The notes under the pieces are model-generated. The model saw only the letters and a program-made list of their open reading frames with translations, was not told where the DNA came from and did not search any database. DNA of 64,000 bases from Eledone cirrhosa (Eukaryota), in NCBI GenBank assembly GCA_964016885.1, contig OZ024740.1:259098001-259162000 (forward strand), written 5' to 3'. Below, in pieces: positions 1 through 49,314 of this stretch. The translations under genes were made by a program, and so were the position numbers. Each line of letters begins with the position of its first letter. Position 1 is the stretch's first letter.

Positions 1-96
1 GAATGGCGCTCATGAGTTCATCCATCTCGTTTGGTGTGGTGAGATTTCGAACTTCCTTACCGTTAATGCGTTTTTGTTTGTAAAGTTCGTTAACTT

Positions 97-2268
97 TTGT
101 GTATGTTGCACAAGGGATGGTGGGTAGTATGTCTACCCACAGATAAGTCTGGTAGGATGTCAATAGAGAGCATGCCGAACTACATCAAGGCTATGCAACC
201 CCACATCACCAACACGAGCGAAATTGTACAGCAAATACATGAGGGGAGAGATTCAATCACCCTCAACGCTCACATGATGATGTCGACCGACATCCTAAAG
301 CCAAGCAGACGCACTGCCAACAACTTCCAGGCGTCCAACAATGGCATACCACCCTTGTATGGGCTCCGCAAAGACCACAAGACAGTCGACGACCCGACAA
401 CAGGACCACCAATAAGACCTGTATGCGGAGCCAATATAGCTAGTAACTACAGGATCTCCTACTTCCTCTCAATGGTTATACGCCCCATAATCAAGATGTC
501 CCCAGCTGTATGTGACAGTACAGAGGATCTCCTCAGCAGAATCAGTGAGTGCAACAAAAACAAAAACCTATCCAACTGCATAATAGGCAGTATGGATGTG
601 GTATCACTGTACCCATCCATTAACATTGATTTTGCTGTGGAAAAATGTGTGGAGATGATCATTGAGAGTGAGGTGGAGATCTGCAACGTCGACACAGACG
701 AACTGGGCCTCCTACTTAGACTTACCTATGACACTGACTACCTAGACAGCCATGACCTTAGACGTTTCTGCCCCAGTAGACCCATAATAGGTAGACCCCT
801 CCCCCCTCCCACCATAACCTCAATGGCAAAAAAGACTCCCATGGGAAGGTGGATTGGGTGGACCAAAGCTATACGGACCCCCCAAAATAATGATCAGGTA
901 AGAAAAATGGTCGCACATGCAATAGGGGCTAGTATCAAAACTACCCCAAAGGGCCACATATTCAAATTCAACGAGAAGATCTACACCCAAAATGAGGGAG
1001 CAGTCATTGGCGTCAGCATAGCTGGTGACGTTGCCAACCTTTTTATGGTATGGTGGGAAAGGAGACTCAAAGATCTTGATGAGAGCTGCATAGACCTCAT
1101 CATGTACTCTCGTTACATAAACGACATCAATATAGTAATAAGGACATCCCACAAGAGAGTACTAACAAGTTTGATTTAGAACGTAGCACAATGGAAAGCA
1201 TCCAGCAGATAGCTAATTCCATATACCAGAGTATAAGTGTAACTATCGACTACCCTTCCAAACACCCTAACAATAGACTACCTGTATTAGACACGGAACT
1301 CTGGATTAACACTATAGACGAGAGAGCCCAAATTCTCCACTCACACTACGCTAAACCCATGGCCTCCAAATACCTGATACTCAAAAACTCAGCAATGTCC
1401 AATAGGGCTAAGTTTAATATTCTGATCGCAGACTTGGTAAGAGTGATGAAAAATGTGTCCTGCATGTGCGACGCAACTGAAATGGAAAGACACATAGAAA
1501 ACTTCATCCATCGCATGCAGTTCTCTGGCTACAACCAAAGAGACAGAAACAGAGTATACAAAGGAGCCACAGAGAAATATAAGATCCTCATAGAAATGGA
1601 CATGAAATGAATTTGCCCATTATACAGGAGCAAATCATGGAATAGCTTAGATAGGACTAGATATAAGATAGGGAAAGCCACCTCATGGTACGACAACCAG
1701 AGATACCAGAGTGTCATGTTTGTGGACGCTACCCCTGGAGGGAAATTAGCTAACCAGTGTAGAAAGGCCCTGAGAAAGACCCACTTAAAGATTAAGGTGG
1801 TAGAAAAGCAAGAAACCACCATAAAATCCATGATCAGCAAAACCTACCTTTTTAAGAAAACCCACTGTACTAATAGGAAATGTATTATATGTAAAGTTAA
1901 CCCCCAGATAAACTGTAAAACTAGAAACGTAGTCTATAGCATAAGATGTACAGAGGGTACGTGCAGAAATATGACAACAACATACATAGGCGAGCCAGCT
2001 CGTAGCATAGGTGAAAGGATAGACCAACACTGGGGGGAACTAAAAGTACGAAAAACGGTTCAGTACTATACGAACATGCCAGCCAACAACACGACGGTAA
2101 CATAGACAACATAGAAATTAAAATAATATCTAAACATAGAAATGACCCAGCAGATAGGCAAATCAGAGAGGCCAGCGAAATAGAACTTAGAAAGCCAAGG
2201 CTAAACAGAAAAAATGAATGGAATAACAACAACACTCAAACAAACAATACTGACCTAAGAGAAGTATA
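97..2268 (+). pseudogene. Disrupted PLE RT-GIY-YIG ORF
   Basis: ORF pieces 97-1179, 1191-1610 and 1716-2105; the last two are in one frame, split only by TGA at 1608-1610. Frameshifts near 1170 and 2035; C-terminus ends at TAA ~2268. Confidence 0.88.
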
Positions 2269-2758
2269 AATAAATAAATAAATAAATACATACACTAACA
2301 CAATAACAACAAACATATATAAACACACACTAGTAAACTAAGATAGAATACAATAACAATACACAGTCACCCAAACACGAACACACATCAAACACTATAC
2401 ACACACGCAAACGCATGCGCAGAGAAGAAGACAAAAATAAATAAATAAATAAAAAAAAACAGATTAAATAAAGATGGCGTAGACATACAATACAACAGGA
2501 GGAAACATAATAGCCCCACTGACGATGTTGTAGATGTGCAACGAAAGAACTTCGTTAGACTATATATATGTGTTTGTGTCTATATTATATCTGTATTTTT
2601 GACCGTTGGTCAGTCAATGATAACAATGAGGACCGAATAAATTAAATTAACTGATATAAAAGATACAGAAGCAAAAACCAACCAAACAGTGAATGTGTTC
2701 TGTTATTAATTCTGGCAATATTATTACACAATTATGACCCTCCCCAAGTATAACAATA
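110..2758 (+). mobile_element. Penelope-like retroelement (PLE), 5'-truncated and decayed; RT + Cys-rich linker + C-terminal GIY-YIG endonuclease, 3' pseudo-LTR with hammerhead motif
   Basis: RT motifs GSMDVVSLYPSI, FKFNEKIYTQNEGAVIG..AGDVANLFM, SRYIND (YIDD decayed), LPVLD; linker HCTNRKCIIC..NC; GIY-YIG NVVYSIRC...YIGEPARSIGERIDQH; after a frameshift RQIREASEI...LNRKNEW. Ends tgaccctccccaagtataacaa, then (TA)n/(TG)n. Confidence 0.92.
2508..2562 (+). ncRNA. Minimal type-I hammerhead ribozyme motif in PLE 3' region (family A)
   Basis: CTGACGA at 2519, stem II gttgta-gatg-tgcaac, GAAA at 2543, short stem III. Homologous copies at 49815 (CTGATGA), 52623 and, more diverged, 4922 (CTGAGGA). Stem I is weak in this copy. 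Confidence 0.7.
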
Positions 2759-3139: not shown

Positions 3140-3737
<598 letters not shown>

Positions 3738-7947: not shown

Positions 7948-7965
7948 TATATATATATATATATG

Positions 7966-8446
7966 TGAAGGGTTCATTCTACTAACATGGCTATAAAAAT
8001 GAGGCTTGTTTGTATAATTGCAAATGAATCGAATTTTATTATTAATATTCGAAAAACTCAGATTACATTTATTGTATTCAGTCATGTAGAGCGAAACATT
8101 TTTTTTTTTTTTTAATGTGGCAAAGCCAGCCATTTATCGCACGTATACCGGAAACTGACTGGCCAGTCTGGTGATGTGCAAATCAGGCCGATCAGTCACT
8201 GTATATTTTAGAAAATATCATATATTTTCACTAGCTCTGACAGTTGGCAGGTGACCAGTGAGCTGTACTGATGAAGGGTGAAACCCAGAAACATTAGTGT
8301 CTGCAGTTCTGTTTACATGCCAACACAAGAGTAAGAATGAAGGGTTCGTTCTACTAACATGGCTTTAAAAATGAGGCTTGTTTGTATAATTGCAAACGAA
8401 TCGAATATTGTTATTAATATTCGAAAAACACAGATTACATTTATTA
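7966..8446 (+). mobile_element. Retrozyme-like element, family F: 372-bp monomer plus ~110-bp terminal direct repeat
   Basis: tgaagggttc...cagattacatttatt occurs at 7966 and again at 8338; one hammerhead between; (TA)n on both flanks. Confidence 0.85.
8260..8309 (+). ncRNA. Type-I hammerhead ribozyme (family F)
   Basis: Stem I gagctgta/tgcagttc; CTGATGA 8268; stem II gggt-gaa-accc; GAAA 8288; stem III ACA-ttag-TGT; GUC cleavage site at 8301. Confidence 0.92.
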
Positions 8447-8677
8447 TACACACATATATATATATATATATATAAAAATCTTTACCTGGGTCCTGTATTT
8501 TCGTTGCTCTAGTGATGCGGTCGGACTGCCGACTGTTATATCTAATTTGCTAAGCTGTCTGAACATAATGTTATACTCTGGGGCCTTACCTCATATGAGT
8601 GCTAAAGCTACAAACCGAATAAGCATACACGCTAGCTTGGCCGTATACTAGAGCTTCGTCTATGCTGTACTAAAATT

Positions 8678-8751: not shown

Positions 8752-8957
8752 TTATTCCGGGTTGAATCGGAGGTAACCACAGTAAGTAAGTAAGGTACTC
8801 AATACATAGCAGAGTATAAAAGTTTTAATATAGAAGATATTCTACAGGACTAGAACTGTTTCATTCGTGAGAAATCATCAGTAATCTGAGATTCCTGATG
8901 ATTTCTCACGAATGAAACAGTTCTAGTCCTGTAGAATCTCTTCTATGTTAAAACTAT
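8752..8957 (-). mobile_element. Fold-back hammerhead element, family G (other copies ~29100-29330, 46850-46990, 54950-55085)
   Basis: Inverted repeat ~8821-8955; tail ccgggttgaatcggaggtaaccac is shared with the other copies. Confidence 0.8.
8888..8940 (+). ncRNA. Type-I hammerhead ribozyme (family G)
   Basis: Stem I gagattc/gaatctc; CTGATGA 8895; short stem II; GAAA 8914; stem III ACAG-ttctagtc-CTGT; GUA site. Confidence 0.9.
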
Positions 8958-9448
8958 ATATATATATATATATACATACATGGAAATTATTTCTTACGAA
9001 TGAAACACCTCTAGTCCTGCAAAAGTCATTTCTTTAATAAAAGGAATATATATGTATATATGTTTATATGTATATGCAGCTGTGCACAACTTAAGACCTA
9101 AGTATCCAGCATAGGCATTTCCTACTGAAGAAATGCAATAGCCCGATCGTGTAATATCAGATATTGTGCAGTTCTCTGCATACTGCAGTTTTAATAACTG
9201 TAATATGCGGAATATTGCATAGAAACGGAATCGGCCCATCAGTTACATACGTGAGATATCTTTACCAAAGCACTGCCACTGTACTCACTGAATAACTATA
9301 ATGTGTGCAATTGGAACATTGGGATGCAGTTCACAACCACAAGCTTGTTGTGTCATTCAGTGGGTGACATATGAATTTCGTAAACTGTGTATGTACATAT
9401 ATATAAATATATATATATATATACGTATATATATATAATGCTTCTTGT

Positions 9449-9958: not shown

Positions 9959-9962
<4 letters not shown>

Positions 9963-10440
9963 TTTTTCGAATATTAATAATAATATTCGATTCGTTTGCA
10001 ATTTTGACAAAACCGGCTATTAATCGCTCGTATACTTGTATACATGAAACTGACTGGCCTATATGCAAATCAGGCTAATATGCAAATCAGGCCTATCAAT
10101 CACTGTATATTCCAGAAAATACCATATATTTTCACTAGCTCTGACAGTTGGGAGGTAAACAGTATTCGGTACTGATGAAGGGTAATCCCCTAGAAACATT
10201 AGCGTCTGCCGTTCTGTTTACATGCCAACATAAGAGCAAGAGTTACGACCCTTGCCATTCTGAGTTCAAATCCCGCCGATGTTAACTTTGCCTTTCATCT
10301 TTACGGGGTCGATAAAATAAAGTACCAGTAATGCACTGGGTAATTGCTGGCCTTGTGCCAAAAGTAGAAACAATTATTAATATTCGAAAAACTCAGATTA
10401 CATTTCTTGTATTCAGCCATGTAGAACGATAAACTATTTG

Positions 10441-14519: not shown

Positions 14520-14927
14520 CAGAAGGGATATTCAATTTGTTGGTAATTCAACAAATATAAACCCGACAAGTTTTCTGGAGTATAATATTCAATGATATTA
14601 AATAAATAGAAACTATATTTATAAAAGCATATTTATTCTATTATATATATTTCAAGGGTACCAAAACTTTGGTACGCTTTCATCAGATAAAATACAAAGT
14701 GTGTTTTATAAATTTTGACATAGCCAAGGAACATACCTTAACGGTTGGAGCTTTCCTTGGATAGACTATTCAAGGAAAACTTCAACCGTTAAGGTATGTT
14801 CCTTGGCTATGTCAAAATTTATAAAACACACTTTGTATTTTATCTGATGAAAGCGTACCAAAGTTTTGGTACCCTTGAAATATATATAATAGAATGAATA
14901 TGGTTTTATAAATATAGTTTCCATTTA
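14518..14927 (-). mobile_element. Fold-back hammerhead element, family L (second copy ~41012-41190), abutting the tandem array
   Basis: Inverted repeat 14603-14927 centred ~14765; unique tail to (TA)n at 14517. Confidence 0.85.
14837..14895 (+). ncRNA. Type-I hammerhead ribozyme (family L; mirror copy ~14635-14695 on minus)
   Basis: Stem I attttat/atagaat; CTGATGA 14844; stem II aag-c-gtacca-aagttt-tggtac-c-ctt; GAAA 14877; palindromic stem III ATATATAT; AUA site. Confidence 0.88.
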
Positions 14928-17900
14928 AATCGTATGGTTGATTGTAGACTTGTTCTATATGTGACGGTATTTTAACGATAGTTATAGCTCTGATTCATCT
15001 GAATTATTGAGCCCTCTGCCGCTCATATCGGATTTCGTTTTTCGTTAACTCGTGCGCCGATTTTTCGATACTCGATCTTTCTAATATATTTAGCTCTGGA
15101 CATAGCTATCCACCAGTTAATTTTATTGCTCATATTTTGTCGATTCTATTGAGTGATGAATAGCTTTTGTTTTATTTTAACATGTCTATTGAGCACTCTA
15201 ATTCGATATGTGTATTTCCACATTCACTCGAATTTTTTTTCGCGGATATAGGGGTCATCTCCCTTGTCTAATGCCATGTGCGTTTTTCACCGCTAGTTGA
15301 CTCCTTTGCCGCCAGGATAAAACTCGTTGACAACGTAAACTCCATTCCACTTATTCTAGTAGGCTTTTATATATTTATATGTGAGCTGATAGAGTACTGT
15401 CTAAGGATTTACAGAAACCCATGAAGCTAGATTTAACACCTTTCTAGTGGGTCCGGGTATGATTTTACATTCATTTAAATTATTGACGTATTGTTTTATT
15501 GATATTTTTTATCTGTTTGGCCCGAATCTTCCTTTATCGATTTTAAATCGTATGGTTGATTGTAGACTTGTTCTATATGTGACGGTATTTTAACGATAGT
15601 TATAGCTCTGATTCATCTGAATTATTGAGCCCTCTGCCGCTCATATCGGATTTCGTTTTTCGTTAACTCGTGCGCCGATTTTTCGATACTCGATCTTTCT
15701 AATATATTTAGCTCTGGACATAGCTATCCACCAGTTAATTTTATTGCTCATATTTTGTCGATTCTATTGAGTGATGAATAGCTTTTGTTTTATTTTAACA
15801 TGTCTATTGAGCACTCTAATTCGATATGTGTATTTCCACATTCACTCGAATTTTTTTTCGCGGATATAGGGGTCATCTCCCTTGTCTAATGCCATGTGCG
15901 TTTTTCACCGCTAGTTGACTCCTTTGCCGCCAGGATAAAACTCGTTGACAACGTAAACTCCATTCCACTTATTCTAGTAGGCTTTTATATATTTATATGT
16001 GAGCTGATAGAGTACTGTCTAAGGATTTACAGAAACCCATGAAGCTAGATTTAACACCTTTCTAGTGGGTCCGGGTATGATTTTACATTCATTTAAATTA
16101 TTGACGTATTGTTTTATTGATATTTTTTATCTGTTTGGCCCGAATCTTCCTTTATCGATTTTAAATCGTATGGTTGATTGTAGACTTGTTCTATATGTGA
16201 CGGTATTTTAACGATAGTTATAGCTCTGATTCATCTGAATTATTGAGCCCTCTGCCGCTCATATCGGATTTCGTTTTTCGTTAACTCGTGCGCCGATTTT
16301 TCGATACTCGATCTTTCTAATATATTTAGCTCTGGACATAGCTATCCACCAGTTAATTTTATTGCTCATATTTTGTCGATTCTATTGAGTGATGAATAGC
16401 TTTTGTTTTATTTTAACATGTCTATTGAGCACTCTAATTCGATATGTGTATTTCCACATTCACTCGAATTTTTTTTCGCGGATATAGGGGTCATCTCCCT
16501 TGTCTAATGCCATGTGCGTTTTTCACCGCTAGTTGACTCCTTTGCCGCCAGGATAAAACTCGTTGACAACGTAAACTCCATTCCACTTATTCTAGTAGGC
16601 TTTTATATATTTATATGTGAGCTGATAGAGTACTGTCTAAGGATTTACAGAAACCCATGAAGCTAGATTTAACACCTTTCTAGTGGGTCCGGGTATGATT
16701 TTACATTCATTTAAATTATTGACGTATTGTTTTATTGATATTTTTTATCTGTTTGGCCCGAATCTTCCTTTATCGATTTTAAATCGTATGGTTGATTGTA
16801 GACTTGTTCTATATGTGACGGTATTTTAACGATAGTTATAGCTCTGATTCATCTGAATTATTGAGCCCTCTGCCGCTCATATCGGATTTCGTTTTTCGTT
16901 AACTCGTGCGCCGATTTTTCGATACTCGATCTTTCTAATATATTTAGCTCTGGACATAGCTATCCACCAGTTAATTTTATTGCTCATATTTTGTCGATTC
17001 TATTGAGTGATGAATAGCTTTTGTTTTATTTTAACATGTCTATTGAGCACTCTAATTCGATATGTGTATTTCCACATTCACTCGAATTTTTTTTCGCGGA
17101 TATAGGGGTCATCTCCCTTGTCTAATGCCATGTGCGTTTTTCACCGCTAGTTGACTCCTTTGCCGCCAGGATAAAACTCGTTGACAACGTAAACTCCATT
17201 CCACTTATTCTAGTAGGCTTTTATATATTTATATGTGAGCTGATAGAGTACTGTCTAAGGATTTACAGAAACCCATGAAGCTAGATTTAACACCTTTCTA
17301 GTGGGTCCGGGTATGATTTTACATTCATTTAAATTATTGACGTATTGTTTTATTGATATTTTTTATCTGTTTGGCCCGAATCTTCCTTTATCGATTTTAA
17401 ATCGTATGGTTGATTGTAGACTTGTTCTATATGTGACGGTATTTTAACGATAGTTATAGCTCTGATTCATCTGAATTATTGAGCCCTCTGCCGCTCATAT
17501 CGGATTTCGTTTTTCGTTAACTCGTGCGCCGATTTTTCGATACTCGATCTTTCTAATATATTTAGCTCTGGACATAGCTATCCACCAGTTAATTTTATTG
17601 CTCATATTTTGTCGATTCTATTGAGTGATGAATAGCTTTTGTTTTATTTTAACATGTCTATTGAGCACTCTAATTCGATATGTGTATTTCCACATTCACT
17701 CGAATTTTTTTTCGCGGATATAGGGGTCATCTCCCTTGTCTAATGCCATGTGCGTTTTTCACCGCTAGTTGACTCCTTTGCCGCCAGGATAAAACTCGTT
17801 GACAACGTAAACTCCATTCCACTTATTCTAGTAGGCTTTTATATATTTATATGTGAGCTGATAGAGTACTGTCTAAGGATTTACAGAAACCCATGAAGCT

Positions 17901-20900
17901 AGATTTAACACCTTTCTAGTGGGTCCGGGTATGATTTTACATTCATTTAAATTATTGACGTATTGTTTTATTGATATTTTTTATCTGTTTGGCCCGAATC
18001 TTCCTTTATCGATTTTAAATCGTATGGTTGATTGTAGACTTGTTCTATATGTGACGGTATTTTAACGATAGTTATAGCTCTGATTCATCTGAATTATTGA
18101 GCCCTCTGCCGCTCATATCGGATTTCGTTTTTCGTTAACTCGTGCGCCGATTTTTCGATACTCGATCTTTCTAATATATTTAGCTCTGGACATAGCTATC
18201 CACCAGTTAATTTTATTGCTCATATTTTGTCGATTCTATTGAGTGATGAATAGCTTTTGTTTTATTTTAACATGTCTATTGAGCACTCTAATTCGATATG
18301 TGTATTTCCACATTCACTCGAATTTTTTTTTCGCGGATATAGGGGTCATCTCCCTTGTCTAATGCCATGTGCGTTTTTCACCGCTAGTTGACTCCTTTGC
18401 CGCCAGGATAAAACTCGTTGACAACGTAAACTCCATTCCACTTATTCTAGTAGGCTTTTATATATTTATATGTGAGCTGATAGAGTACTGTCTAAGGATT
18501 TACAGAAACCCATGAAGCTAGATTTAACACCTTTCTAGTGGGTCCGGGTATGATTTTACATTCATTTAAATTATTGACGTATTGTTTTATTGATATTTTT
18601 TATCTGTTTGGCCCGAATCTTCCTTTATCGATTTTAAATCGTATGGTTGATTGTAGACTTGTTCTATATGTGACGGTATTTTAACGATAGTTATAGCTCT
18701 GATTCATCTGAATTATTGAGCCCTCTGCCGCTCATATCGGATTTCGTTTTTCGTTAACTCGTGCGCCGATTTTTCGATACTCGATCTTTCTAATATATTT
18801 AGCTCTGGACATAGCTATCCACCAGTTAATTTTATTGCTCATATTTTGTCGATTCTATTGAGTGATGAATAGCTTTTGTTTTATTTTAACATGTCTATTG
18901 AGCACTCTAATTCGATATGTGTATTTCCACATTCACTCGAATTTTTTTTCGCGGATATAGGGGTCATCTCCCTTGTCTAATGCCATGTGCGTTTTTCACC
19001 GCTAGTTGACTCCTTTGCCGCCAGGATAAAACTCGTTGACAACGTAAACTCCATTCCACTTATTCTAGTAGGCTTTTATATATTTATATGTGAGCTGATA
19101 GAGTACTGTCTAAGGATTTACAGAAACCCATGAAGCTAGTTTTAACACCTTTCTAGTGGGTCCGGGTATGATTTTACATTCATTTAAATTATTGACGTAT
19201 TGTTTTATTGATATTTTTTATCTGTTTGGCCCGAATCTTCCTTTATCGATTTTAAATCGTATGGTTGATTGTAGACTTGTTCTATATGTGACGGTATTTT
19301 AACGATAGTTATAGCTCTGATTCATCTGAATTATTGAGCCCTCTGCCGCTCATATCGGATTTCGTTTTTCGTTAACTCGTGCGCCGATTTTTCGATACTC
19401 GATCTTTCTAATATATTTAGCTCTGGACATAGCTATCCACCAGTTAATTTTATTGCTCATATTTTGTCGATTCTATTGAGTGATGAATAGCTTTTGTTTT
19501 ATTTTAACATGTCTATTGAGCACTCTAATTCGATATGTGTATTTCCACATTCACTCGAATTTTTTTTCGCGGATATAGGGGTCATCTCCCTTGTCTAATG
19601 CCATGTGCGTTTTTCACCGCTAGTTGACTCCTTTGCCGCCAGGATAAAACTCGTTGACAACGTAAACTCCATTCCACTTATTCTAGTAGGCTTTTATATA
19701 TTTATATGTGAGCTGATAGAGTACTGTCTAAGGATTTACAGAAACCCATGAAGCTAGATTTAACACCTTTCTAGTGGGTCCGGGTATGATTTTACATTCA
19801 TTTAAATTATTGACGTATTGTTTTATTGATATTTTTTATCTGTTTGGCCCGAATCTTCCTTTATCGATTTTAAATCGTATGGTTGATTGTAGACTTGTTC
19901 TATATGTGACGGTATTTTAACGATAGTTATAGCTCTGATTCATCTGAATTATTGAGCCCTCTGCCGCTCATATCGGATTTCGTTTTTCGTTAACTCGTGC
20001 GCCGATTTTTCGATACTCGATCTTTCTAATATATTTAGCTCTGGACATAGCTATCCACCAGTTAATTTTATTGCTCATATTTTGTCGATTCTATTGAGTG
20101 ATGAATAGCTTTTGTTTTATTTTAACATGTCTATTGAGCACTCTAATTCGATATGTGTATTTCCACATTCACTCGAATTTTTTTTCGCGGATATAGGGGT
20201 CATCTCCCTTGTCTAATGCCATGTGCGTTTTTCACCGCTAGTTGACTCCTTTGCCGCCAGGATAAAACTCGTTGACAACGTAAACTCCATTCCACTTATT
20301 CTAGTAGGCTTTTATATATTTATATGTGAGCTGATAGAGTACTGTCTAAGGATTTACAGAAACCCATGAAGCTAGATTTAACACCTTTCTAGTGGGTCCG
20401 GGTATGATTTTACATTCATTTAAATTATTGACGTATTGTTTTATTGATATTTTTTATCTGTTTGGCCCGAATCTTCCTTTATCGATTTTAAATCGTATGG
20501 TTGATTGTAGACTTGTTCTATATGTGACGGTATTTTAACGATAGTTATAGCTCTGATTCATCTGAATTATTGAGCCCTCTGCCGCTCATATCGGATTTCG
20601 TTTTTCGTTAACTCGTGCGCCGATTTTTCGATACTCGATCTTTCTAATATATTTAGCTCTGGACATAGCTATCCACCAGTTAATTTTATTGCTCATATTT
20701 TGTCGATTCTATTGAGTGATGAATAGCTTTTGTTTTATTTTAACATGTCTATTGAGCACTCTAATTCGATATGTGTATTTCCACATTCACTCGAATTTTT
20801 TTTTCGCGGATATAGGGGTCATCTCCCTTGTCTAATGCCATGTGCGTTTTTCACCGCTAGTTGACTCCTTTGCCGCCAGGATAAAACTCGTTGACAACGT

Positions 20901-23900
20901 AAACTCCATTCCACTTATTCTAGTAGGCTTTTATATATTTATATGTGAGCTGATAGAGTACTGTCTAAGGATTTACAGAAACCCATGAAGCTAGATTTAA
21001 CACCTTTCTAGTGGGTCCGGGTATGATTTTACATTCATTTAAATTATTGACGTATTGTTTTATTGATATTTTTTATCTGTTTGGCCCGAATCTTCCTTTA
21101 TCGATTTTAAATCGTATGGTTGATTGTAGACTTGTTCTATATGTGACGGTATTTTAACGATAGTTATAGCTCTGATTCATCTGAATTATTGAGCCCTCTG
21201 CCGCTCATATCGGATTTCGTTTTTCGTTAACTCGTGCGCCGATTTTTCGATACTCGATCTTTCTAATATATTTAGCTCTGGACATAGCTATCCACCAGTT
21301 AATTTTATTGCTCATATTTTGTCGATTCTATTGAGTGATGAATAGCTTTTGTTTTATTTTAACATGTCTATTGAGCACTCTAATTCGATATGTGTATTTC
21401 CACATTCACTCGAATTTTTTTTCGCGGATATAGGGGTCATCTCCCTTGTCTAATGCCATGTGCGTTTTTCACCGCTAGTTGACTCCTTTGCCGCCAGGAT
21501 AAAACTCGTTGACAACGTAAACTCCATTCCACTTATTCTAGTAGGCTTTTATATATTTATATGTGAGCTGATAGAGTACTGTCTAAGGATTTACAGAAAC
21601 CCATGAAGCTAGATTTAACACCTTTCTAGTGGGTCCGGGTATGATTTTACATTCATTTAAATTATTGACGTATTGTTTTATTGATATTTTTTATCTGTTT
21701 GGCCCGAATCTTCCTTTATCGATTTTAAATCGTATGGTTGATTGTAGACTTGTTCTATATGTGACGGTATTTTAACGATAGTTATAGCTCTGATTCATCT
21801 GAATTATTGAGCCCTCTGCCGCTCATATCGGATTTCGTTTTTCGTTAACTCGTGCGCCGATTTTTCGATACTCGATCTTTCTAATATATTTAGCTCTGGA
21901 CATAGCTATCCACCAGTTAATTTTATTGCTCATATTTTGTCGATTCTATTGAGTGATGAATAGCTTTTGTTTTATTTTAACATGTCTATTGAGCACTCTA
22001 ATTCGATATGTGTATTTCCACATTCACTCGAATTTTTTTTCGCGGATATAGGGGTCATCTCCCTTGTCTAATGCCATGTGCGTTTTTCACCGCTAGTTGA
22101 CTCCTTTGCCGCCAGGATAAAACTCGTTGACAACGTAAACTCCATTCCACTTATTCTAGTAGGCTTTTATATATTTATATGTGAGCTGATAGAGTACTGT
22201 CTAAGGATTTACAGAAACCCATGAAGCTAGATTTAACACCTTTCTAGTGGGTCCGGGTATGATTTTACATTCATTTAAATTATTGACGTATTGTTTTATT
22301 GATATTTTTTATCTGTTTGGCCCGAATCTTCCTTTATCGATTTTAAATCGTATGGTTGATTGTAGACTTGTTCTATATGTGACGGTATTTTAACGATAGT
22401 TATAGCTCTGATTCATCTGAATTATTGAGCCCTCTGCCGCTCATATCGGATTTCGTTTTTCGTTAACTCGTGCGCCGATTTTTCGATACTCGATCTTTCT
22501 AATATATTTAGCTCTGGACATAGCTATCCACCAGTTAATTTTATTGCTCATATTTTGTCGATTCTATTGAGTGATGAATAGCTTTTGTTTTATTTTAACA
22601 TGTCTATTGAGCACTCTAATTCGATATGTGTATTTCCACATTCACTCGAATTTTTTTTCGCGGATATAGGGGTCATCTCCCTTGTCTAATGCCATGTGCG
22701 TTTTTCACCGCTAGTTGACTCCTTTGCCGCCAGGATAAAACTCGTTGACAACGTAAACTCCATTCCACTTATTCTAGTAGGCTTTTATATATTTATATGT
22801 GAGCTGATAGAGTACTGTCTAAGGATTTACAGAAACCCATGAAGCTAGATTTAACACCTTTCTAGTGGGTCCGGGTATGATTTTACATTCATTTAAATTA
22901 TTGACGTATTGTTTTATTGATATTTTTTATCTGTTTGGCCCGAATCTTCCTTTATCGATTTTAAATCGTATGGTTGATTGTAGACTTGTTCTATATGTGA
23001 CGGTATTTTAACGATAGTTATAGCTCTGATTCATCTGAATTATTGAGCCCTCTGCCGCTCATATCGGATTTCGTTTTTCGTTAACTCGTGCGCCGATTTT
23101 TCGATACTCGATCTTTCTAATATATTTAGCTCTGGACATAGCTATCCACCAGTTAATTTTATTGCTCATATTTTGTCGATTCTATTGAGTGATGAATAGC
23201 TTTTGTTTTATTTTAACATGTCTATTGAGCACTCTAATTCGATATGTGTATTTCCACATTCACTCGAATTTTTTTTCGCGGATATAGGGGTCATCTCCCT
23301 TGTCTAATGCCATGTGCGTTTTTCACCGCTAGTTGACTCCTTTGCCGCCAGGATAAAACTCGTTGACAACGTAAACTCCATTCCACTTATTCTAGTAGGC
23401 TTTTATATATTTATATGTGAGCTGATAGAGTACTGTCTAAGGATTTACAGAAACCCATGAAGCTAGATTTAACACCTTTCTAGTGGGTCCGGGTATGATT
23501 TTACATTCATTTAAATTATTGACGTATTGTTTTATTGATATTTTTTATCTGTTTGGCCCGAATCTTCCTTTATCGATTTTAAATCGTATGGTTGATTGTA
23601 GACTTGTTCTATATGTGACGGTATTTTAACGATAGTTATAGCTCTGATTCATCTGAATTATTGAGCCCTCTGCCGCTCATATCGGATTTCGTTTTTCGTT
23701 AACTCGTGCGCCGATTTTTCGATACTCGATCTTTCTAATATATTTAGCTCTGGACATAGCTATCCACCAGTTAATTTTATTGCTCATATTTTGTCGATTC
23801 TATTGAGTGATGAATAGCTTTTGTTTTATTTTAACATGTCTATTGAGCACTCTAATTCGATATGTGTATTTCCACATTCACTCGAATTTTTTTTCGCGGA

Positions 23901-26900
23901 TATAGGGGTCATCTCCCTTGTCTAATGCCATGTGCGTTTTTCACCGCTAGTTGACTCCTTTGCCGCCAGGATAAAACTCGTTGACAACGTAAACTCCATT
24001 CCACTTATTCTAGTAGGCTTTTATATATTTATATGTGAGCTGATAGAGTACTGTCTAAGGATTTACAGAAACCCATGAAGCTAGATTTAACACCTTTCTA
24101 GTGGGTCCGGGTATGATTTTACATTCATTTAAATTATTGACGTATTGTTTTATTGATATTTTTTATCTGTTTGGCCCGAATCTTCCTTTATCGATTTTAA
24201 ATCGTATGGTTGATTGTAGACTTGTTCTATATGTGACGGTATTTTAACGATAGTTATAGCTCTGATTCATCTGAATTATTGAGCCCTCTGCCGCTCATAT
24301 CGGATTTCGTTTTTCGTTAACTCGTGCGCCGATTTTTCGATACTCGATCTTTCTAATATATTTAGCTCTGGACATAGCTATCCACCAGTTAATTTTATTG
24401 CTCATATTTTGTCGATTCTATTGAGTGATGAATAGCTTTTGTTTTATTTTAACATGTCTATTGAGCACTCTAATTCGATATGTGTATTTCCACATTCACT
24501 CGAATTTTTTTTCGCGGATATAGGGGTCATCTCCCTTGTCTAATGCCATGTGCGTTTTTCACCGCTAGTTGACTCCTTTGCCGCCAGGATAAAACTCGTT
24601 GACAACGTAAACTCCATTCCACTTATTCTAGTAGGCTTTTATATATTTATATGTGAGCTGATAGAGTACTGTCTAAGGATTTACAGAAACCCATGAAGCT
24701 AGATTTAACACCTTTCTAGTGGGTCCGGGTATGATTTTACATTCATTTAAATTATTGACGTATTGTTTTATTGATATTTTTTATCTGTTTGGCCCGAATC
24801 TTCCTTTATCGATTTTAAATCGTATGGTTGATTGTAGACTTGTTCTATATGTGACGGTATTTTAACGATAGTTATAGCTCTGATTCATCTGAATTATTGA
24901 GCCCTCTGCCGCTCATATCGGATTTCGTTTTTCGTTAACTCGTGCGCCGATTTTTCGATACTCGATCTTTCTAATATATTTAGCTCTGGACATAGCTATC
25001 CACCAGTTAATTTTATTGCTCATATTTTGTCGATTCTATTGAGTGATGAATAGCTTTTGTTTTATTTTAACATGTCTATTGAGCACTCTAATTCGATATG
25101 TGTATTTCCACATTCACTCGAATTTTTTTTCGCGGATATAGGGGTCATCTCCCTTGTCTAATGCCATGTGCGTTTTTCACCGCTAGTTGACTCCTTTGCC
25201 GCCAGGATAAAACTCGTTGACAACGTAAACTCCATTCCACTTATTCTAGTAGGCTTTTATATATTTATATGTGAGCTGATAGAGTACTGTCTAAGGATTT
25301 ACAGAAACCCATGAAGCTAGATTTAACACCTTTCTAGTGGGTCCGGGTATGATTTTACATTCATTTAAATTATTGACGTATTGTTTTATTGATATTTTTT
25401 ATCTGTTTGGCCCGAATCTTCCTTTATCGATTTTAAATCGTATGGTTGATTGTAGACTTGTTCTATATGTGACGGTATTTTAACGATAGTTATAGCTCTG
25501 ATTCATCTGAATTATTGAGCCCTCTGCCGCTCATATCGGATTTCGTTTTTCGTTAACTCGTGCGCCGATTTTTCGATACTCGATCTTTCTAATATATTTA
25601 GCTCTGGACATAGCTATCCACCAGTTAATTTTATTGCTCATATTTTGTCGATTCTATTGAGTGATGAATAGCTTTTGTTTTATTTTAACATGTCTATTGA
25701 GCACTCTAATTCGATATGTGTATTTCCACATTCACTCGAATTTTTTTTCGCGGATATAGGGGTCATCTCCCTTGTCTAATGCCATGTGCGTTTTTCACCG
25801 CTAGTTGACTCCTTTGCCGCCAGGATAAAACTCGTTGACAACGTAAACTCCATTCCACTTATTCTAGTAGGCTTTTATATATTTATATGTGAGCTGATAG
25901 AGTACTGTCTAAGGATTTACAGAAACCCATGAAGCTAGATTTAACACCTTTCTAGTGGGTCCGGGTATGATTTTACATTCATTTAAATTATTGACGTATT
26001 GTTTTATTGATATTTTTTATCTGTTTGGCCCGAATCTTCCTTTATCGATTTTAAATCGTATGGTTGATTGTAGACTTGTTCTATATGTGACGGTATTTTA
26101 ACGATAGTTATAGCTCTGATTCATCTGAATTATTGAGCCCTCTGCCGCTCATATCGGATTTCGTTTTTCGTTAACTCGTGCGCCGATTTTTCGATACTCG
26201 ATCTTTCTAATATATTTAGCTCTGGACATAGCTATCCACCAGTTAATTTTATTGCTCATATTTTGTCGATTCTATTGAGTGATGAATAGCTTTTGTTTTA
26301 TTTTAACATGTCTATTGAGCACTCTAATTCGATATGTGTATTTCCACATTCACTCGAATTTTTTTTCGCGGATATAGGGGTCATCTCCCTTGTCTAATGC
26401 CATGTGCGTTTTTCACCGCTAGTTGACTCCTTTGCCGCCAGGATAAAACTCGTTGACAACGTAAACTCCATTCCACTTATTCTAGTAGGCTTTTATATAT
26501 TTATATGTGAGCTGATAGAGTACTGTCTAAGGATTTACAGAAACCCATGAAGCTAGATTTAACACCTTTCTAGTGGGTCCGGGTATGATTTTACATTCAT
26601 TTAAATTATTGACGTATTGTTTTATTGATATTTTTTATCTGTTTGGCCCGAATCTTCCTTTATCGATTTTAAACCGTATGGTTGATTGTAGACTTGTTCT
26701 ATATGTGACGGTATTTTAACGATAGTTATAGCTCTGATTCATCTGAATTATTGAGCCCTCTGCCGCTCATATCGGATTTCGTTTTTCGTTAACTCGTGCG
26801 CCGATTTTTCGATACTCGATCTTTCTAATATATTTAGCTCTGGACATAGCTATCCACCAGTTAATTTTATTGCTCATATTTTGTCGATTCTATTGAGTGA

Positions 26901-28676
26901 TGAATAGCTTTTGTTTTATTTTAACATGTCTATTGAGCACTCTAATTCGATATGTGTATTTCCACATTCACTCGAATTTTTTTTCGCGGATATAGGGGTC
27001 ATCTCCCTTGTCTAATGCCATGTGCGTTTTTCACCGCTAGTTGACTCCTTTGCCGCCAGGATAAAACTCGTTGACAACGTAAACTCCATTCCACTTATTC
27101 TAGTAGGCTTTTATATATTTATATGTGAGCTGATAGAGTACTGTCTAAGGATTTACAGAAACCCATGAAGCTAGATTTAACACCTTTCTAGTGGGTCCGG
27201 GTATGATTTTACATTCATTTAAATTATTGACGTATTGTTTTATTGATATTTTTTATCTGTTTGGCCCGAATCTTCCTTTATCGATTTTAAATCGTATGGT
27301 TGATTGTAGACTTGTTCTATATGTGACGGTATTTTAACGATAGTTATAGCTCTGATTCATCTGAATTATTGAGCCCTCTGCCGCTCATATCGGATTTCGT
27401 TTTTCGTTAACTCGTGCGCCGATTTTTCGATACTCGATCTTTCTAATATATTTAGCTCTGGACATAGCTATCCACCAGTTAATTTTATTGCTCATATTTT
27501 GTCGATTCTATTGAGTGATGAATAGCTTTTGTTTTATTTTAACATGTCTATTGAGCACTCTAATTCGATATGTGTATTTCCACATTCACTCGAATTTTTT
27601 TTTCGCGGATATAGGGGTCATCTCCCTTGTCTAATGCCATGTGCGTTTTTCACCGCTAGTTGACTCCTTTGCCGCCAGGATAAAACTCGTTGACAACGTA
27701 AACTCCATTCCACTTATTCTAGTAGGCTTTTATATATTTATATGTGAGCTGATAGAGTACTGTCTAAGGATTTACAGAAACCCATGAAGCTAGATTTAAC
27801 ACCTTTCTAGTGGGTCCGGGTATGATTTTACATTCATTTAAATTATTGACGTATTGTTTTATTGATATTTTTTATCTGTTTGGCCCGAATCTTCCTTTAT
27901 CGATTTTAAATCGTATGGTTGATTGTAGACTTGTTCTATATGTGACGGTATTTTAACGATAGTTATAGCTCTGATTCATCTGAATTATTGAGCCCTCTGC
28001 CGCTCATATCGGATTTCGTTTTTCGTTAACTCGTGCGCCGATTTTTCGATACTCGATCTTTCTAATATATTTAGCTCTGGACATAGCTATCCACCAGTTA
28101 ATTTTATTGCTCATATTTTGTCGATTCTATTGAGTGATGAATAGCTTTTGTTTTATTTTAACATGTCTATTGAGCACTCTAATTCGATATGTGTATTTCC
28201 ACATTCACTCGAATTTTTTTTCGCGGATATAGGGGTCATCTCCCTTGTCTAATGCCATGTGCGTTTTTCACCGCTAGTTGACTCCTTTGCCGCCAGGATA
28301 AAACTCGTTGACAACGTAAACTCCATTCCACTTATTCTAGTAGGCTTTTATATATTTATATGTGAGCTGATAGAGTACTGTCTAAGGATTTACAGAAACC
28401 CATGAAGCTAGATTTAACACCTTTCTAGTGGGTCCGGGTATGATTTTACATTCATTTAAATTATTGACGTATTGTTTTATTGATATTTTTTATCTGTTTG
28501 GCCCGAATCTTCCTTTATCGATTTTAAATCGTATGGTTGATTGTAGACTTGTTCTATATGTGACGGTATTTTAACGATAGTTATAGCTCTGATTCATCTG
28601 AATTATTGAGCCCTCTGCCGCTCATATCGGATTTCGTTTTTCGTTAACTCGTGCGCCGATTTTTCGATACTCGATC

Positions 28677-28688
<12 letters not shown>
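14924..28688. repeat. Tandem array: 22 full copies plus ~160 bp of a 618-bp unit, >99.9% identical
   Basis: cgtatggttg recurs at 14931, 15549, 16167 ... 28530. Only five variants seen by eye: T8>T9 near 18330, 20800 and 27600; A>T at 19140; T>C at 26674. No ORF in the track. Confidence 0.98.
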
Positions 28689-28717
<29 letters not shown>

Positions 28718-28718
<1 letters not shown>

Positions 28719-28916
28719 CGAAGGAAATATGGTAAGGAACCAGGTGGACCATAACGCACCAAAGTACTCAATACTTAGGGTAGTAGAGTGGGTAATAGGA
28801 ACGAGTAGGACCCCGACGGCTGAGCTCAAGCCGTTTCGACGGCTAATTCTGGACGCATTCAGTCCAGAATTAGCCGTCGAAACGGCTTGAGCTCAGCCGT
28901 CGGGGTCCTACTCGTT

Positions 28917-34940: not shown

Positions 34941-37900
34941 CATGATGATGGCCGCCAACTCGTGTTCGCGCATTGCCATCGCCTGATAAAATGCTAAAAA
35001 TTGAGAGGCACGATTGTGGCTCTTTAAACCAGCCAAAGACTTTCACCCTCTGGCACACACATGTCAACCGTAGGCTCCTCTGGGACTTTCCACTGCTTGG
35101 TTCTGACTGTGTGTTCTCGTGTGTCTTTTAAGTCCGCCCATGCTAGCACATTCCTAGCCACATTCCTTACAACTTTTCAGATCATAATCTACATGAGGTC
35201 TACTGATATGACTACTGATATGTCCATGCCTAATCAAACCAGCTTTGCTCAGACAGACTCAACCACAGTGTTGTGTTGACAAACCAGATGTGGCTCAACA
35301 GCAGGCAGTTCAGAACAGTCCCTTTTCCTTACCTTTCTGTTCAGTGTTAGGTGTTCTCTTCAACGAGTTTCAAAGTGTTCGCTTCCTGACTTGATCAAAC
35401 GTCTCCACTTCACCCACTTCTCAGCCATTTTCTCCCACTCGTCAGATGAAATTCCAGCGCAAGCCAAGGTGCTCCTGATACAGTCCCGGTACCGCGTTTT
35501 TGGTTTGTGTGGTGGTCGCCTTCCTTCGCACAATTTACAGTAGTAAAGTTGCTTTGGAATACGATCATCAGACATCCGGACCACATGACCGCACCACCTC
35601 AACCGATGCCGAAAGATCAGGCTCTCTATACTCATGCATCTACTCCATCCAAGAACTTCCAAATCACTGACAAACATTTTCCATCACACCCCAAGTATCT
35701 TACGAAGAGATTGTCGGTGAAACCTCTCCAGTTCCTTGAGGTGCTTTCTGTATGTGACCCACGTTTCACAAGCATAAAGCAAAGAGGAGACGACCCACAA
35801 GTCAGATACAGTTTTACTTTGGTTTCAATAGTGATACCTCGTCTGGCCCATAAAATTTCATTCAGCCGTCGAAAAGCATCACTGGCTTTCTTGATTTTTA
35901 AGGATATCATGAAGTGTGCATGAATTATTCAACGTACTTCCAAGGTAAACAAACTTGTCAGAAACATTTAATCTCTTTCCGTACACGTACACACTTGGTG
36001 GTAGTGTATTCTTTCCCATGTGCTGGATGATACATCACAACAGTCTTTTCCAAGTTTATTGTGAGGCCCAAAGCGCTGCAAGCTTCAGAGAAAGAGTTCA
36101 TAATATGCTGCATGTCACTTTGTGAGTGTGTAAAAAGATCGTAGTCATCTGCATACAAAAACTCTCGTATATGCACCAAAGCGCCTGATGTTGAACAACC
36201 CTCCTGATGTAAACTCCATGCGAACAATTTTTCGTGACCCAAGCCTTCATGTCATCATGAAAAAGACCCAGAATTTTCACAAACTTTGGAGGGCTACCAA
36301 GCTTTTCCAAAATTTTCCACGACGTAGTTCGATTGACGGTCAAAGGCTTTGTCAAGTCAACAAAGACCTGGTAAAAGTCCATATGTAGTTCGATACACTT
36401 TTCTTGCAGCTGCCGAGCAGAAAAGATCATATCTACTGTTCCTCTTTCGTTTCTGAACTCACACTGCCACTCAGGCAACACATTCAGATCAGCCTTTGAG
36501 ATCGATCTATCCATCAAAATTCGACACATCACTTTACCAACTACTGAAAGAAGTGATATGCCACGATAATTGCCACATTTGACTTTCCCACCCTTTCCTT
36601 TATGGAGAATCACCATGAGCGCATCCTTCCAATCTTGTGGGACACCCTCATCTTCCTACACCTTTTTCATGGGGTTAGTCAGGCGCTGCGTGAAGTTTTC
36701 ACCACTGCACTTCAAAACCTCTGCACTCAAACCATCCATACCAGGAGACTTACCACAGTCCCACTTATGCACAGCAGAAGTCACTTCTGCAAGAGAAGGT
36801 ACATCAGCCATTTCATGCTTCACTGGTTCAATAAGAATGGAGCAAATGAAATCATCATCAACCTGGGATGGCTCGTTCAAGAGCTCATCAAAGTGATCTC
36901 TCCATCTGTTCAGTATGTCTTTTGGATCAAAGGGCCATACACTTATCTGAGTAGAGTGTGCAGCAGTTTCACATTGTTGCCATCTGAGGTTGCTTGAACT
37001 TCATCTGCTTTGTTGCTCCACCAGGTATTTTGCATGACCTTGAGTTTCACCTGCACCTCCTTCTTTATCTGTCTATAATGTTCATAATTGTCAACAACAG
37101 AGCTACCACCTTTAAGAATTACATCGAGTGGTTTGTGTTTACTGTCCAGCAGAGCCTTGACCTCCTAGTCATTCTCATCAAACCAGTCCTTCTGTTTTCT
37201 TGTGACAAAGCCAAGAACCTCTGCTGAACCATCATAGACCGAGTTCCTGAAGTCATTCCAGTTATTCTCACAATCAATGTTTTCAAGCCTGCGATGCAGC
37301 TCTTCTTTGACACCCTTATCTTTCATACGATCTATATTCAAGCGCTTTGGAATATGGACACCATTTGCTCTTGTTTGAGGTTTGATCACGAAGTTTTCTT
37401 TGGCTCGCACCAGAGGATTGTCTGTCATGCACTCTGCGCTACGCAGATCACACGTGTTTGATATCCAGCATGTCACGTTTCTTCACAAGAACTTAGACGA
37501 TCAGATGCCACACTTTGAACCCAGGATGCATCCATGTTGTCTTGAACTTATCCTTTTGCTGGAACATCGTGCTTGCAATAAACAAATCTAACTCCACGCA
37601 CATCTGTAGCAAGAGGAGACCATTGTTGTTACATTTCCCTATGCCATGTCTGCCGATCACAATTTTATCTGCTGAAGGAATCTTTTTGACAAGTTCATGT
37701 AAAAGGCGAGTTTCTCGTCTTTATTGGAGTTCATCGTTGGGGCATATACACTGACATTGGTAAGGTAGCGATTGTACATCAGAGGAATTCTCATTGACAT
37801 AAGGCGATCACTGATGCCACTTGGTAACTGGTCAAGTGTCAATACTAAAGACGTTTTCACTGCAAAAGCCACACCTGCCTCCCTTTTGCATCCTGCTGTT

Positions 37901-40749: not shown

Positions 40750-41216
40750 AAATACAAGTATTTCTGCTCCTAACAGTAAAGTTTTAGTAGCTGATGATTG
40801 AGTGTTTTATCTTATGGTTCCTGCCATTTCCATTTTCACTCATGATACAGCTATTTAGAATGCCTAAATCTGGGGAATTTACCATTCTTAAGTAAATATT
40901 TTTCTTCGCTATCCGATTTGAAAATAATAGAGATGTTACCATCTATCTAAGCTCTCTGCCTTGCGATCCGACTTTTCTTTCGCAATGCATCTATCTATAT
41001 ATATATATATATCAATGATATTAATAAATGGAAAGTATATTTATAAAACCATATTTATTCTATTATGTATATTTCAAGGGTACCAAAATTTGGTACGCTT
41101 TCATCAGATAAAATACAAAGTTTGATTTATAAGTATTGACATATCCAGGAATGAAACCTTAACGGTTCAAGTTTTACCTAAATATCCCTTTGCTTATATA
41201 TTTATATACATATATA

Positions 41217-42925: not shown

Positions 42926-43218
42926 GGAATTTTACCTGCCCTAGATAGAGAGATAGATACATACATATATAAATAGGGAGACACAAAGCAGGCTTTGTTT
43001 AGAAGCGGCTAGCGAAATTGAAAATTAGGTGGTAATATTTGCTTACGCTGTATTTGACTAAATAGAATTAGTCTGTTAGTTGGGATTTTAAAAGGATGAG
43101 TATTGACGTACATGGGACACAAACCCACATCTTTGGTTTGCCGGACCAATGTGTAACCATTACACCAACATACCACCCATGGTTCCCTCCATTCAATTAG
43201 AAGCTATATAACCATAGC

Positions 43219-46743: not shown

Positions 46744-47029
46744 TTATGTACAACATATGATATACATATTCATATCATATCATATATATGTGTGTGTGTG
46801 TGTATGTATATATAAAGAGATGGGGAATGAGAGAGAGAGAGAAAAAATTGACTATTACAAGACTAGACCTGCATTGTCTCAAATGAAACAGTTGTAATCC
46901 TGTAGAAGTCATTTCTATATAAAATAGAGCTGCCTATACTCAACTAAAGTATTGAGTACCTTTTTAACTGTGATCGCTTCTAGATATCTTTTGAGGAAGC
47001 CACCCATAATTATGTATAAATATATATAC

Positions 47030-47310
47030 AATAAATGTAATCTGAGTTTTTCGAATATTAATAATTGTTTCTACTTTTGGCACAAGACCAGTAAATACCC
47101 AGTGCATTACTGGTACTTTATTTTACCGACCCCGTAAGGATGAAAGGCAAAGTTAACCTCGGCGGGATTTGAACTCAGAATGGCAATGGCCGTAATTCTA
47201 TGCGTCAAAGCATGGCGTCCTACAATAACATTCGATTCGTTTGCAATTTTGCAAACAAGCCTCAATTTTATAGCCATGTCAGTAGAATGAAGTGTTCATT
47301 CTACTCGCTG
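47030..47310 (-). mobile_element. Family-F fragment carrying an embedded SINE
   Basis: F sequence on both sides of SINE 47060-47220. Confidence 0.75.

Positions 47311-49222: not shown

Positions 49223-49314
<92 letters not shown>

What the first reader, a model, noticed from the sequence alone, without database searches (positions are those of the whole stretch)
7966..8446. Family F is a 1.3-mer of a 372-nt monomer with one hammerhead, and its stem I covaries between copies
Seen: terminal direct repeat with period 372, a single hammerhead and no ORF. Stem I is ctgta/tgcag here and cggta/tgccg in the copy at 10167-10211, a compensatory U-A to G-C change; the stem II loop also differs while pairing is kept. 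Inference: this is the footprint of reverse transcription around a ~372-nt circular RNA, i.e. a non-LTR retrozyme under selection for cleavage.
Basis: partly seen in the sequence, partly recalled or inferred. Interest (0 to 1): 0.72.

Follow-up and report, generated by a model that had tools for sequence, protein, structure and literature searches.

The report
Octopus hammerhead repeat spread by Penelope
This is one decayed copy of an abundant, non-coding, ribozyme-carrying repeat that was pasted into TA microsatellites in the pattern Penelope-like retrotransposons leave; it belongs to a known kind ('retrozyme'), and whether its template was a circular RNA is still open.

Summary
In detail: 7966-8445 is 1.29 units of period 372 (ends 102/108 identical), with one type I hammerhead (cut after C8301) and no frame over 56 aa. 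The stem I U-A/G-C swap is real but weak: one event, about 9% by chance, its 3' half under 5% of depth in three laid contig sets, and that copy breaks stem III. Better family-level covariation lies in a hairpin at 8334-8352. Laid contigs show a very abundant family (6951 contigs in one run) whose 3' ends cluster at fixed sites before (TA)n, about 70-175 nt past the cut. The three window copies show partial tandem, an inverted 5' piece, a tail at one end only and 5' truncation: the Penelope-like element (PLE) footprint. Two copies share one SINE insertion, so composite RNAs were re-copied. Best reading: a non-autonomous PLE-mobilised element of the non-LTR retrozyme kind. A circular template is the published hypothesis but is not required, is not shown, and fits copy 2 poorly. 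This single-hammerhead copy cannot excise a monomer. New member of a known kind.

The parts
7948..7964 (.). (TA)n microsatellite, left flank of copy 1
7966..8073 (+). 5' overlap: partial upstream unit, 5'-truncated 36 nt short of the upstream cut site
   Evidence: 102/108 identical to 8338-8445
8074..8337 (+). single-copy body of the 372-nt unit (T run, variable hairpin module 8162-8196, hammerhead)
8244..8323 (+). extended stem I domain with internal loop enclosing the hammerhead
   Evidence: folds z -3.4 in both copies; family variants 8255A, 8314C, 8315G keep or restore pairs
8263..8306 (+). type I hammerhead: stem I 8263-8267/8302-8306, core 8268-8274, stem II 8276-8279/8283-8286 on an A8275.A8287 mismatch, GAAA 8288-8291, palindromic stem III 8291-8300, cut after C8301
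   Evidence: no Rfam match
8334..8352 (+). 8-bp hairpin with variable 3-nt loop, 33-51 nt past the cut; A8341-T8345 to G-C covariation in the family
   Evidence: X4: both changes at depth 665.8 in 3 contigs; X8: 17%/15% and 46%/46%; pairs
8338..8445 (+). 3' overlap ending at the family's main 3' end (inferred RT start region)
   Evidence: 67 X1 contigs go loose into (AT)n behind the equivalent place 8072, 27 behind 8077
8446..8474 (.). CA/TA microsatellite, right flank of copy 1
9960..10011 (-). copy 2: inverted 5' piece (equivalent to 8009-8060), no SINE, facing (TA)n
10005..10241 (+). copy 2: forward body (equivalent to 8118-8336) with hammerhead 10167-10211; overlaps the inverted piece by about 7 nt
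   Evidence: core at 10172, C17 at 10206
10239..10378 (+). copy 2: 5'-truncated SINE inside the element
10373..10439 (+). copy 2: 3' end with tail (equivalent to 8038 to about 8095-8104), then (TA)n
47224..47306 (-). copy 3: 5'-truncated part (equivalent to 8329-8415), no hammerhead
47060..47223 (-). copy 3: SINE at the same site as in copy 2
47026..47065 (-). copy 3: 3' end (equivalent to 8038-8077), then TA-rich flank

Best explanation
Family F is a high-copy, non-autonomous element of the non-LTR retrozyme kind that borrows the RT-endonuclease of a Penelope-like element. Steps: (1) source loci of more than one unit are transcribed (inferred). (2) The PLE protein binds the RNA past the hammerhead, nicks a TA microsatellite and starts reverse transcription at one of a few fixed internal sites about 70-175 nt 3' of the cut site (fixed ends and TA targets shown; enzyme inferred). 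(3) cDNA runs back a variable distance: under one unit (copy 3), 1.29 units (copy 1), or with a second priming one unit upstream that gives an inverted 5' piece (copy 2) (structures shown; route inferred). (4) The hammerhead is predicted to sit in an inactive fold as a monomer, its core paired to loop III, and to cut as a double hammerhead through its palindromic stem III, so uncut more-than-unit RNA can serve as template (folding computed; activity not tested). The copy at 7966-8445 is a dead-end product with one ribozyme, about 4% drifted from the family majority. The template was most likely a linear more-than-unit RNA; a circle is possible but not needed.
For: Partial tandem 1.29 units. 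Fixed 3' ends into (AT)n: behind 8072 in 67 X1, 3 X4 and 1 X5 contigs; behind 8077 in 27 X1 contigs (21 loose-end rows shown, 686 hidden); copy 1 ends at the first, copy 3 at the second. Copy 2 has both ends facing out into (TA)n, an inverted 5' piece, and ends differing by about 35-44 nt, matching the inverted copy and 30-40-bp one-sided tail of PLEs (PMC8557442; PMC11167929). 6951 X1 contigs laid; summed depth 2.2-3.3e5 over the hammerhead against 3.5-13.7 for the 8 longest contigs (order of magnitude only). Copies 2 and 3 carry a SINE at the same site sharing a variant absent from 7 of 7 other aligned SINE copies, yet have different 3' ends and flanks. A broken PLE ORF with its own hammerhead lies at 94-2105. 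Stem III pairing probability 7e-5, core/loop III pairing 0.998. bioRxiv 10.64898/2026.07.22.740005 links animal retrozymes to PLE pLTRs.
Against: No sequence link to an autonomous partner: F does not match the pLTR of the PLE at 94-2700 or four other hammerhead loci (best E 0.08). No whole genome is held, so tandem source arrays were not seen; the unit junction was shown only in 2 X1 contigs and 98+114 X8 reads at 2 and 3 starts. The distribution of 5' ends rests on 3 window copies. Rfam does not recognise the hammerhead, stem II sits on an A.A mismatch, and one X8 group of 830 reads shows T at core position A9. Both overlaps of copy 1 share A at 7984/8356 where 98% of X1 depth has G, which a circle also predicts.
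Confidence: 0.62

Rival explanations
1. Circle template: tandem loci give monomers by hammerhead cutting, a host ligase closes them, and a PLE RT starts at the fixed internal site and runs more than once round the circle; copy 1 is 1.29 turns.
For: Model proposed in PMC4209133 and PMC7229834; mussel retrozymes of 350-390 bp make abundant circRNA. Copy 1's overlaps share a rare allele (7984/8356) and differ by 6/108, about what 4% drift per copy gives. The unit folds well as a circle (z -3.7 and -5.4 vs 40 shuffles). Fixed 3' ends do not exclude a circle.
Against: Linear folds score as well (z -4.2, -6.0) and the opposite strand also scores -3.1, so folding does not favour a circle. Copy 2's inverted piece lacks the SINE of its downstream unit. 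Copy 1's overlaps differ at 7993/8365, where both alleles segregate (X1 9% A, X8 70% A). No array beyond 1.29 units among 3 window copies. PAc uses unprocessed RNA and showed no reads ending at the cut.
Confidence: 0.25
2. F is the terminal repeat (pLTR) region of an unseen autonomous PLE, and the 372-nt unit is an internally deleted or truncated derivative copied from it.
For: Same geometry as PAc (hammerhead, then RT start about 85-125 nt later, my arithmetic). Extra A after A9 as in PLE hammerheads. 9 X1 contigs join 8244 from a different upstream sequence. Depth is highest over the 3' terminal 50 nt.
Against: The unit closes on itself at 372 nt with no frame over 56 aa; copy 2 independently holds 8118-8336; stems I-III are canonical in size rather than the minimal PLE type; no match to the window's PLE.
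Confidence: 0.1
3. Local DNA duplication of 108 nt in a dispersed repeat, or LINE-driven SINE-type retroposition, with the hammerhead inert.
For: LINE RT ORF at 59592-63017; no Rfam hammerhead match; single compensatory pair is within chance.
Against: The duplicate lies 372 nt away, not adjacent; the junction also occurs in X8 reads; inverted piece, tail and TA targeting are PLE traits; only 1 of 40 shown variant rows falls in 8256-8313, in loop II.
Confidence: 0.03

Closest known systems
Non-LTR retrozymes of animals (Cervera & de la Pena 2020, PMC7229834; Li, Clavereau & Pollet 2026, bioRxiv 10.64898/2026.07.22.740005); nearest in size the Mytilus 350-390-bp repeats
   Same: Non-coding unit of 150-450 bp, GC under 50%, one type I hammerhead per unit with short palindromic stem III, high copy number, co-occurs with PLEs; monomer copies are common.
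   Different: This locus has one hammerhead, so it fails Li's 'active' rule of two complete units; predicted fold blocks the ribozyme, whereas most metazoan retrozyme circles are predicted to leave it free; A.A at the base of stem II (axolotl HHR_Amex2 has U.U); circRNA not shown.
EN+ Penelope-like elements, PAc/Poseidon and Neptune/Naiad insertion structure (PMC11167929, PMC8557442, PMC4209133)
   Same: Partial tandem, inverted 5'-truncated copy, one-sided 30-40-bp tail, AT-rich or (TA)n targets, hammerhead upstream of a fixed internal RT start, extra base after A9.
   Different: No ORF; unit 372 nt instead of 3-4 kb; hammerhead canonical-sized rather than minimal; no partner identified.
MRC1 and other non-autonomous Chlamys PLEs (PMC8557442, passage)
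   Same: Non-autonomous, forms pLTR-like partial tandems and head-to-tail insertions.
   Different: Chlamys mostly lack canonical hammerheads and resemble their autonomous partners at the 3' end; no such partner found here.

Membership tests
Non-LTR retrozyme | Type I hammerhead with conserved core boxes | tested here: met
   CTGATGA 8268-8274, GAAA 8288-8291, GTC 8299-8301, stems I-III; Rfam models do not match
Non-LTR retrozyme | G10.1-C11.1 pair closing stem II next to the core | tested here: inconclusive
   A8275 faces A8287; the G-C pair follows one step out. A mismatch here has precedent in axolotl HHR_Amex2; effect on cutting untested
Non-LTR retrozyme | Unit of 150-450 bp, GC under 50%, non-coding | tested here: met
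   372 nt, GC 0.36, longest frame 56 aa
Non-LTR retrozyme | [quoted passage not shown] 'active') | tested here: not met
   One core in copy 1, one in copy 2, none in copy 3. Holds for these loci only
Non-LTR retrozyme | Tandem arrays somewhere in the family | tested here: inconclusive
   Unit junction in 2 X1 contigs and 98+114 X8 reads; short contigs cannot show arrays; no genome held
Non-LTR retrozyme | Highly self-paired monomer | tested here: met
   61-65% paired, z -3.7 and -5.4 as circle, but equally as linear
Non-LTR retrozyme | Self-cleavage in vitro | not testable with these tools
   Folding predicts an inactive monomer and a possible dimer
Non-LTR retrozyme | Accumulates as circular RNA | not testable with these tools
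   Needs RNase R and Northern or long-read RNA
Non-LTR retrozyme | No PBS or PPT | not tested
   Not searched for
PLE-type insertion | Partial tandem with 5' truncation | tested here: met
   Copy 1 1.29 units; copy 3 starts at the equivalent of 8329
PLE-type insertion | Inverted 5'-truncated copy next to the 5' end | tested here: met
   1 of 3 window copies: 9960-10011 minus strand
PLE-type insertion | Discrete 3' ends with an optional 30-40-bp tail | tested here: met
   Ends at equivalents of 8060, 8072-8073, 8077, about 8095-8104; copy 2's two ends differ by about 35-44 nt
PLE-type insertion | AT-rich or microsatellite targets | tested here: met
   4 of 4 outward 3' ends in the window meet TA runs or a TA-rich flank; 67+27 X1 contigs
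Autonomous PLE | ORF with RT and GIY-YIG endonuclease | tested here: not met
   No frame over 56 aa
Non-autonomous PLE | Terminal homology to an autonomous PLE's pLTR | tested here: inconclusive
   No match to the one PLE 3' region in the window (2050-2700); rest of genome not available

The most novel reading that the evidence does not exclude
F copies are a genomic record of a PLE reverse transcriptase starting at a fixed internal site and running more than one turn round a hammerhead-made circular RNA, in a family of order 10^4 copies that carries natural markers (a SINE passenger, subfamily alleles). Comparing the two overlaps of many more-than-unit copies would then give the first direct genomic test of circle-templated PLE retrotransposition, and the SINE-bearing subfamily would show a SINE moved by PLE rather than LINE machinery.
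Probability: 0.25. Interest if true: 0.7.

Novelty: new member of a known kind. Interest (0 to 1): 0.36.

Why it matters
How retrozymes and PLEs regenerate more-than-unit copies is open: the circle model (PMC4209133, PMC7229834) is a hypothesis, and the one in vitro PLE system uses uncut linear RNA (PMC11167929). An abundant family with fixed 3' ends and marker-bearing units lets a single assembly decide between them. It also extends the retrozyme-PLE link, argued mainly from vertebrates, to an octopus-like genome; my searches found no description of such a family there, only 235 unanalysed Rfam hammerhead hits in giant squid. As a class it is known.

Tried and rejected
Whole genome: none held. 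Rfam: no hammerhead at 8268. Exact hammerhead pattern: 0 matches in metagenome contigs and viral contigs, so no viroid-like or microbial relative found. The look-up of sequencing runs: no RNA holder listed; this says nothing on expression. X8 'begin/end' peaks at 8316, 8319 and 8114 were rejected as biology: they fall on restriction-like sites created by variants 8315G and 8117T in a RAD library (enzyme identity is my inference), so X8 allele shares are biased. Loose ends before 8162, 8177, 8244, 8283 read as subfamily variants, not insertion points. The strict hammerhead scan missed both F ribozymes because of the A.A mismatch; the loose scan found them. A two-strand fold did not return the double hammerhead (the program cannot draw it), so dimer activity rests on the palindrome alone. 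Circular folding does not discriminate. F as pLTR of the PLE at 94-2700: no similarity. Pfam found nothing on the three PLE ORF pieces. Bacterial promoter scan is irrelevant for an animal. Earlier findings by sequence and by place: none. PMC5785218 not held.

Full report
Observation. The stretch is a direct repeat of period 372 (best of 400 periods tried, 102/109). The exact limits are 7966-8073 and 8338-8445, 102/108 identical: 1.29 units, set in TA/CA microsatellite on both sides. It holds one type I hammerhead: stem I 8263-8267/8302-8306, core 8268-8274, stem II 8276-8279/8283-8286, GAAA 8288-8291, GTC 8299-8301, inside a longer stem from 8244 to 8323 (z -3.4 in both copies). No frame exceeds 56 aa and GC is 0.36. 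Rfam does not match it at gathering score or at E<=10, probably because A8275 faces A8287 at the base of stem II.

Covariation claim. T8264-A8305 corresponds to G10168-C10210 in copy 2. At the copies' divergence (21/165 aligned sites) the chance of at least one such double change among 15 pairs is 0.087. Copy 2 also breaks a stem III pair (C10203; self-duplex -3.7 vs -10.2 kcal/mol). In laid contigs no A>C site reaches 5% in X1, X4 or X5 (X8 has two, places not shown), and the 32 X1 contigs with copy 2's loop II carry copy 1's stem I arm. So this swap is rare and is not evidence of selection. Family-level signs are better but modest: 8341 A>G travels with 8345 T>C in a hairpin at 8334-8352 (X4 depth 665.8 for both, 3 contigs each; X8 17%/15% and 46%/46%; X1 9%/10%), 8314C and 8315G keep pairs, and only 1 of the 40 variant rows shown (of 90) lies in 8256-8313, in loop II (6 expected if uniform; by hand P about 0.015, about 0.05 without the 11 T-run rows). 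Against: one X4 contig breaks the hairpin at 8338, and 830 X8 reads show T at A9. Copy 1 differs from 80% or more of X1 depth at 16 of 372 places, two of which weaken pairs (8255, 8348), so it is a drifting copy.

Family. No genome is held. I laid 4 of 10 listed runs on 8020-8391. X1 gave 6951 contigs with summed depth 2.2-3.3e5 over the hammerhead against 3.5-13.7 for its 8 longest contigs: of order 10^4 copies, though the tool warns this is no copy number. X5, a different organism label, gave 36 contigs with the same majority alleles. 3' ends cluster: 67 X1, 3 X4 and 1 X5 contigs go into (AT)n behind 8072, 27 X1 contigs behind 8077; 2182 X8 reads go loose behind 8370 into mixed AT-rich sequence (21 rows shown, 686 hidden). 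No shown row marks 5' ends at the cut site. The unit junction appears in 2 X1 contigs (one may be this locus) and 98+114 X8 reads. Unit length varies (extra 30-66 nt at 8162-8196). The best homologue of the ORF at 94-1176 is an Octopus vulgaris protein at 71%, so the genome is octopus-like.

Window copies. Copy 2 is: (TA)n, inverted piece 9960-10011 (equivalent to 8009-8060), forward body 10005-10241 (8118-8336), SINE 10239-10378, 3' end 10373-10439 (8038 to about 8095-8104), (TA)n. Copy 3 on the minus strand is 47306-47224 (8329-8415), SINE, 47065-47026 (8038-8077). Of 10 SINE hits in the window (2 of them the composites' own), only these 2 continue into F; they share a variant absent from 7 of 7 other aligned copies (one 28-nt hit not aligned) but have different 3' ends and flanks. 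I infer one SINE insertion into F followed by re-copying of the composite RNA; a SINE subfamily hitting the same ATT site twice is the weaker alternative. Copy 2's inverted piece crosses that site without the SINE, and its forward piece begins just past the upstream unit's 3'-end zone with about 7 nt of overlap. That is the geometry of two primings, one unit apart, on one RNA whose units differ (twin priming is recalled from L1 work; one search found no paper joining it with PLE hammerheads). A single monomeric circle does not give this, unless two RNAs were used or the SINE came later.

Mechanism. Partial tandems, an inverted 5' copy, a 30-40-bp tail at one end and microsatellite targets are the PLE footprint (PMC8557442, 12 of 17 passages). 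PAc nicks AT-rich DNA on both strands, starts at two internal sites past its hammerhead that define the tail, and uses uncut RNA (PMC11167929, parts 1-2 of 4). F's ends lie 69 and 131-176 nt past the cut. In F the core pairs with loop III (probability 0.998; stem III 7e-5), while 8291-8300 is a full palindrome with G-U pairs (-8.8 kcal/mol), the design described for hammerheads that cut as dimers (PMC4209133, parts 1-2 of 4). So a monomer should cut poorly, which lets more-than-unit linear RNA persist; and this locus, with one ribozyme, cannot release a monomer. A broken PLE ORF (RT motifs, CxxC and GIY-YIG-like motif read by eye) with its own hammerhead at 2519 lies in the window, but its 3' region does not match F: the partner is unknown.

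Circle or line. For a circle: the published model (PMC4209133; PMC7229834 parts 2-4 of 6; PMC7761336, 10 passages), mussel circles of like size, and an allele shared by both overlaps of copy 1 (A at 7984/8356; 98% of X1 depth has G). Against: copy 2's discordant units, one overlap difference at a segregating site (7993/8365), and no folding preference (circular z -3.7, -5.4; linear -4.2, -6.0; opposite strand -3.1; 40 shuffles). Each is one site or one locus. I put linear at about 0.6, circle at 0.25.

Known and new. Li et al. (bioRxiv 10.64898/2026.07.22.740005, parts 1-3 of 5; supplements closed and may list more families) already argue that animal retrozymes are non-autonomous PLE derivatives and that monomer copies are common. 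F fits that kind, though these three loci fail the two-hammerhead rule. Searches found no account of this family; the giant squid paper (2 passages) lists 235 hammerhead hits without analysis; Repbase could not be checked, nor supplements of the cited papers read.

Noticed in passing
window 94-2700 (+): Broken PLE ORF in three pieces (RT motifs, C-terminal CxxC and GIY-YIG-like motif), 71% to an Octopus vulgaris protein, with a hammerhead at 2519 in its 3' region; Pfam misses it. Related ends at 49312-49986 and an inverted pair at 52284-52525/52540-52809.
   Followed up: partly
window 3261-3604, 14603-14941, 41025-41184, 42674, 9462: At least three further hammerhead families; two loci are head-to-head inverted pairs typical of PLE ends. 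About 13 hammerhead-like cores in 64 kb counting F.
   Followed up: partly
window 14924-28822: 23-copy tandem array of a 618-bp unit, near 100% identical, beginning right after the hammerhead pLTR at 14844; no frame over 62 aa. Possibly a PLE-started array or an assembly expansion.
   Followed up: partly
window 59592-63017 (+): Open 1141-aa frame with RVT_1 and zf-RVT: a LINE, possibly young. A second RT fragment at 36101-36655 (-).
   Followed up: no
window 10239-10378 and 47060-47223: Same SINE insertion inside two F copies with different ends and flanks: a composite apparently re-copied as RNA.
   Followed up: yes
run X4, record 14 (laid on 8264-8375): A 321-nt contig at depth 644 in a small run of unrecorded kind holds a diverged hammerhead and hairpin with different flanks; could be a related family or an expressed copy.
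   Followed up: no
window 8810-8966: Long near-perfect inverted repeat (MITE-like) giving sub-threshold miRNA matches; related pieces near 54962 and 29200.
   Followed up: no
window 47431 (+): A CTGATGA...GAAA candidate with a long stem II and GC-rich flanking pairs just outside copy 3; not analysed.
   Followed up: no
window 43104-43174 (-): tRNA-like Rfam match (40.1 bits), probably a SINE head.
   Followed up: no
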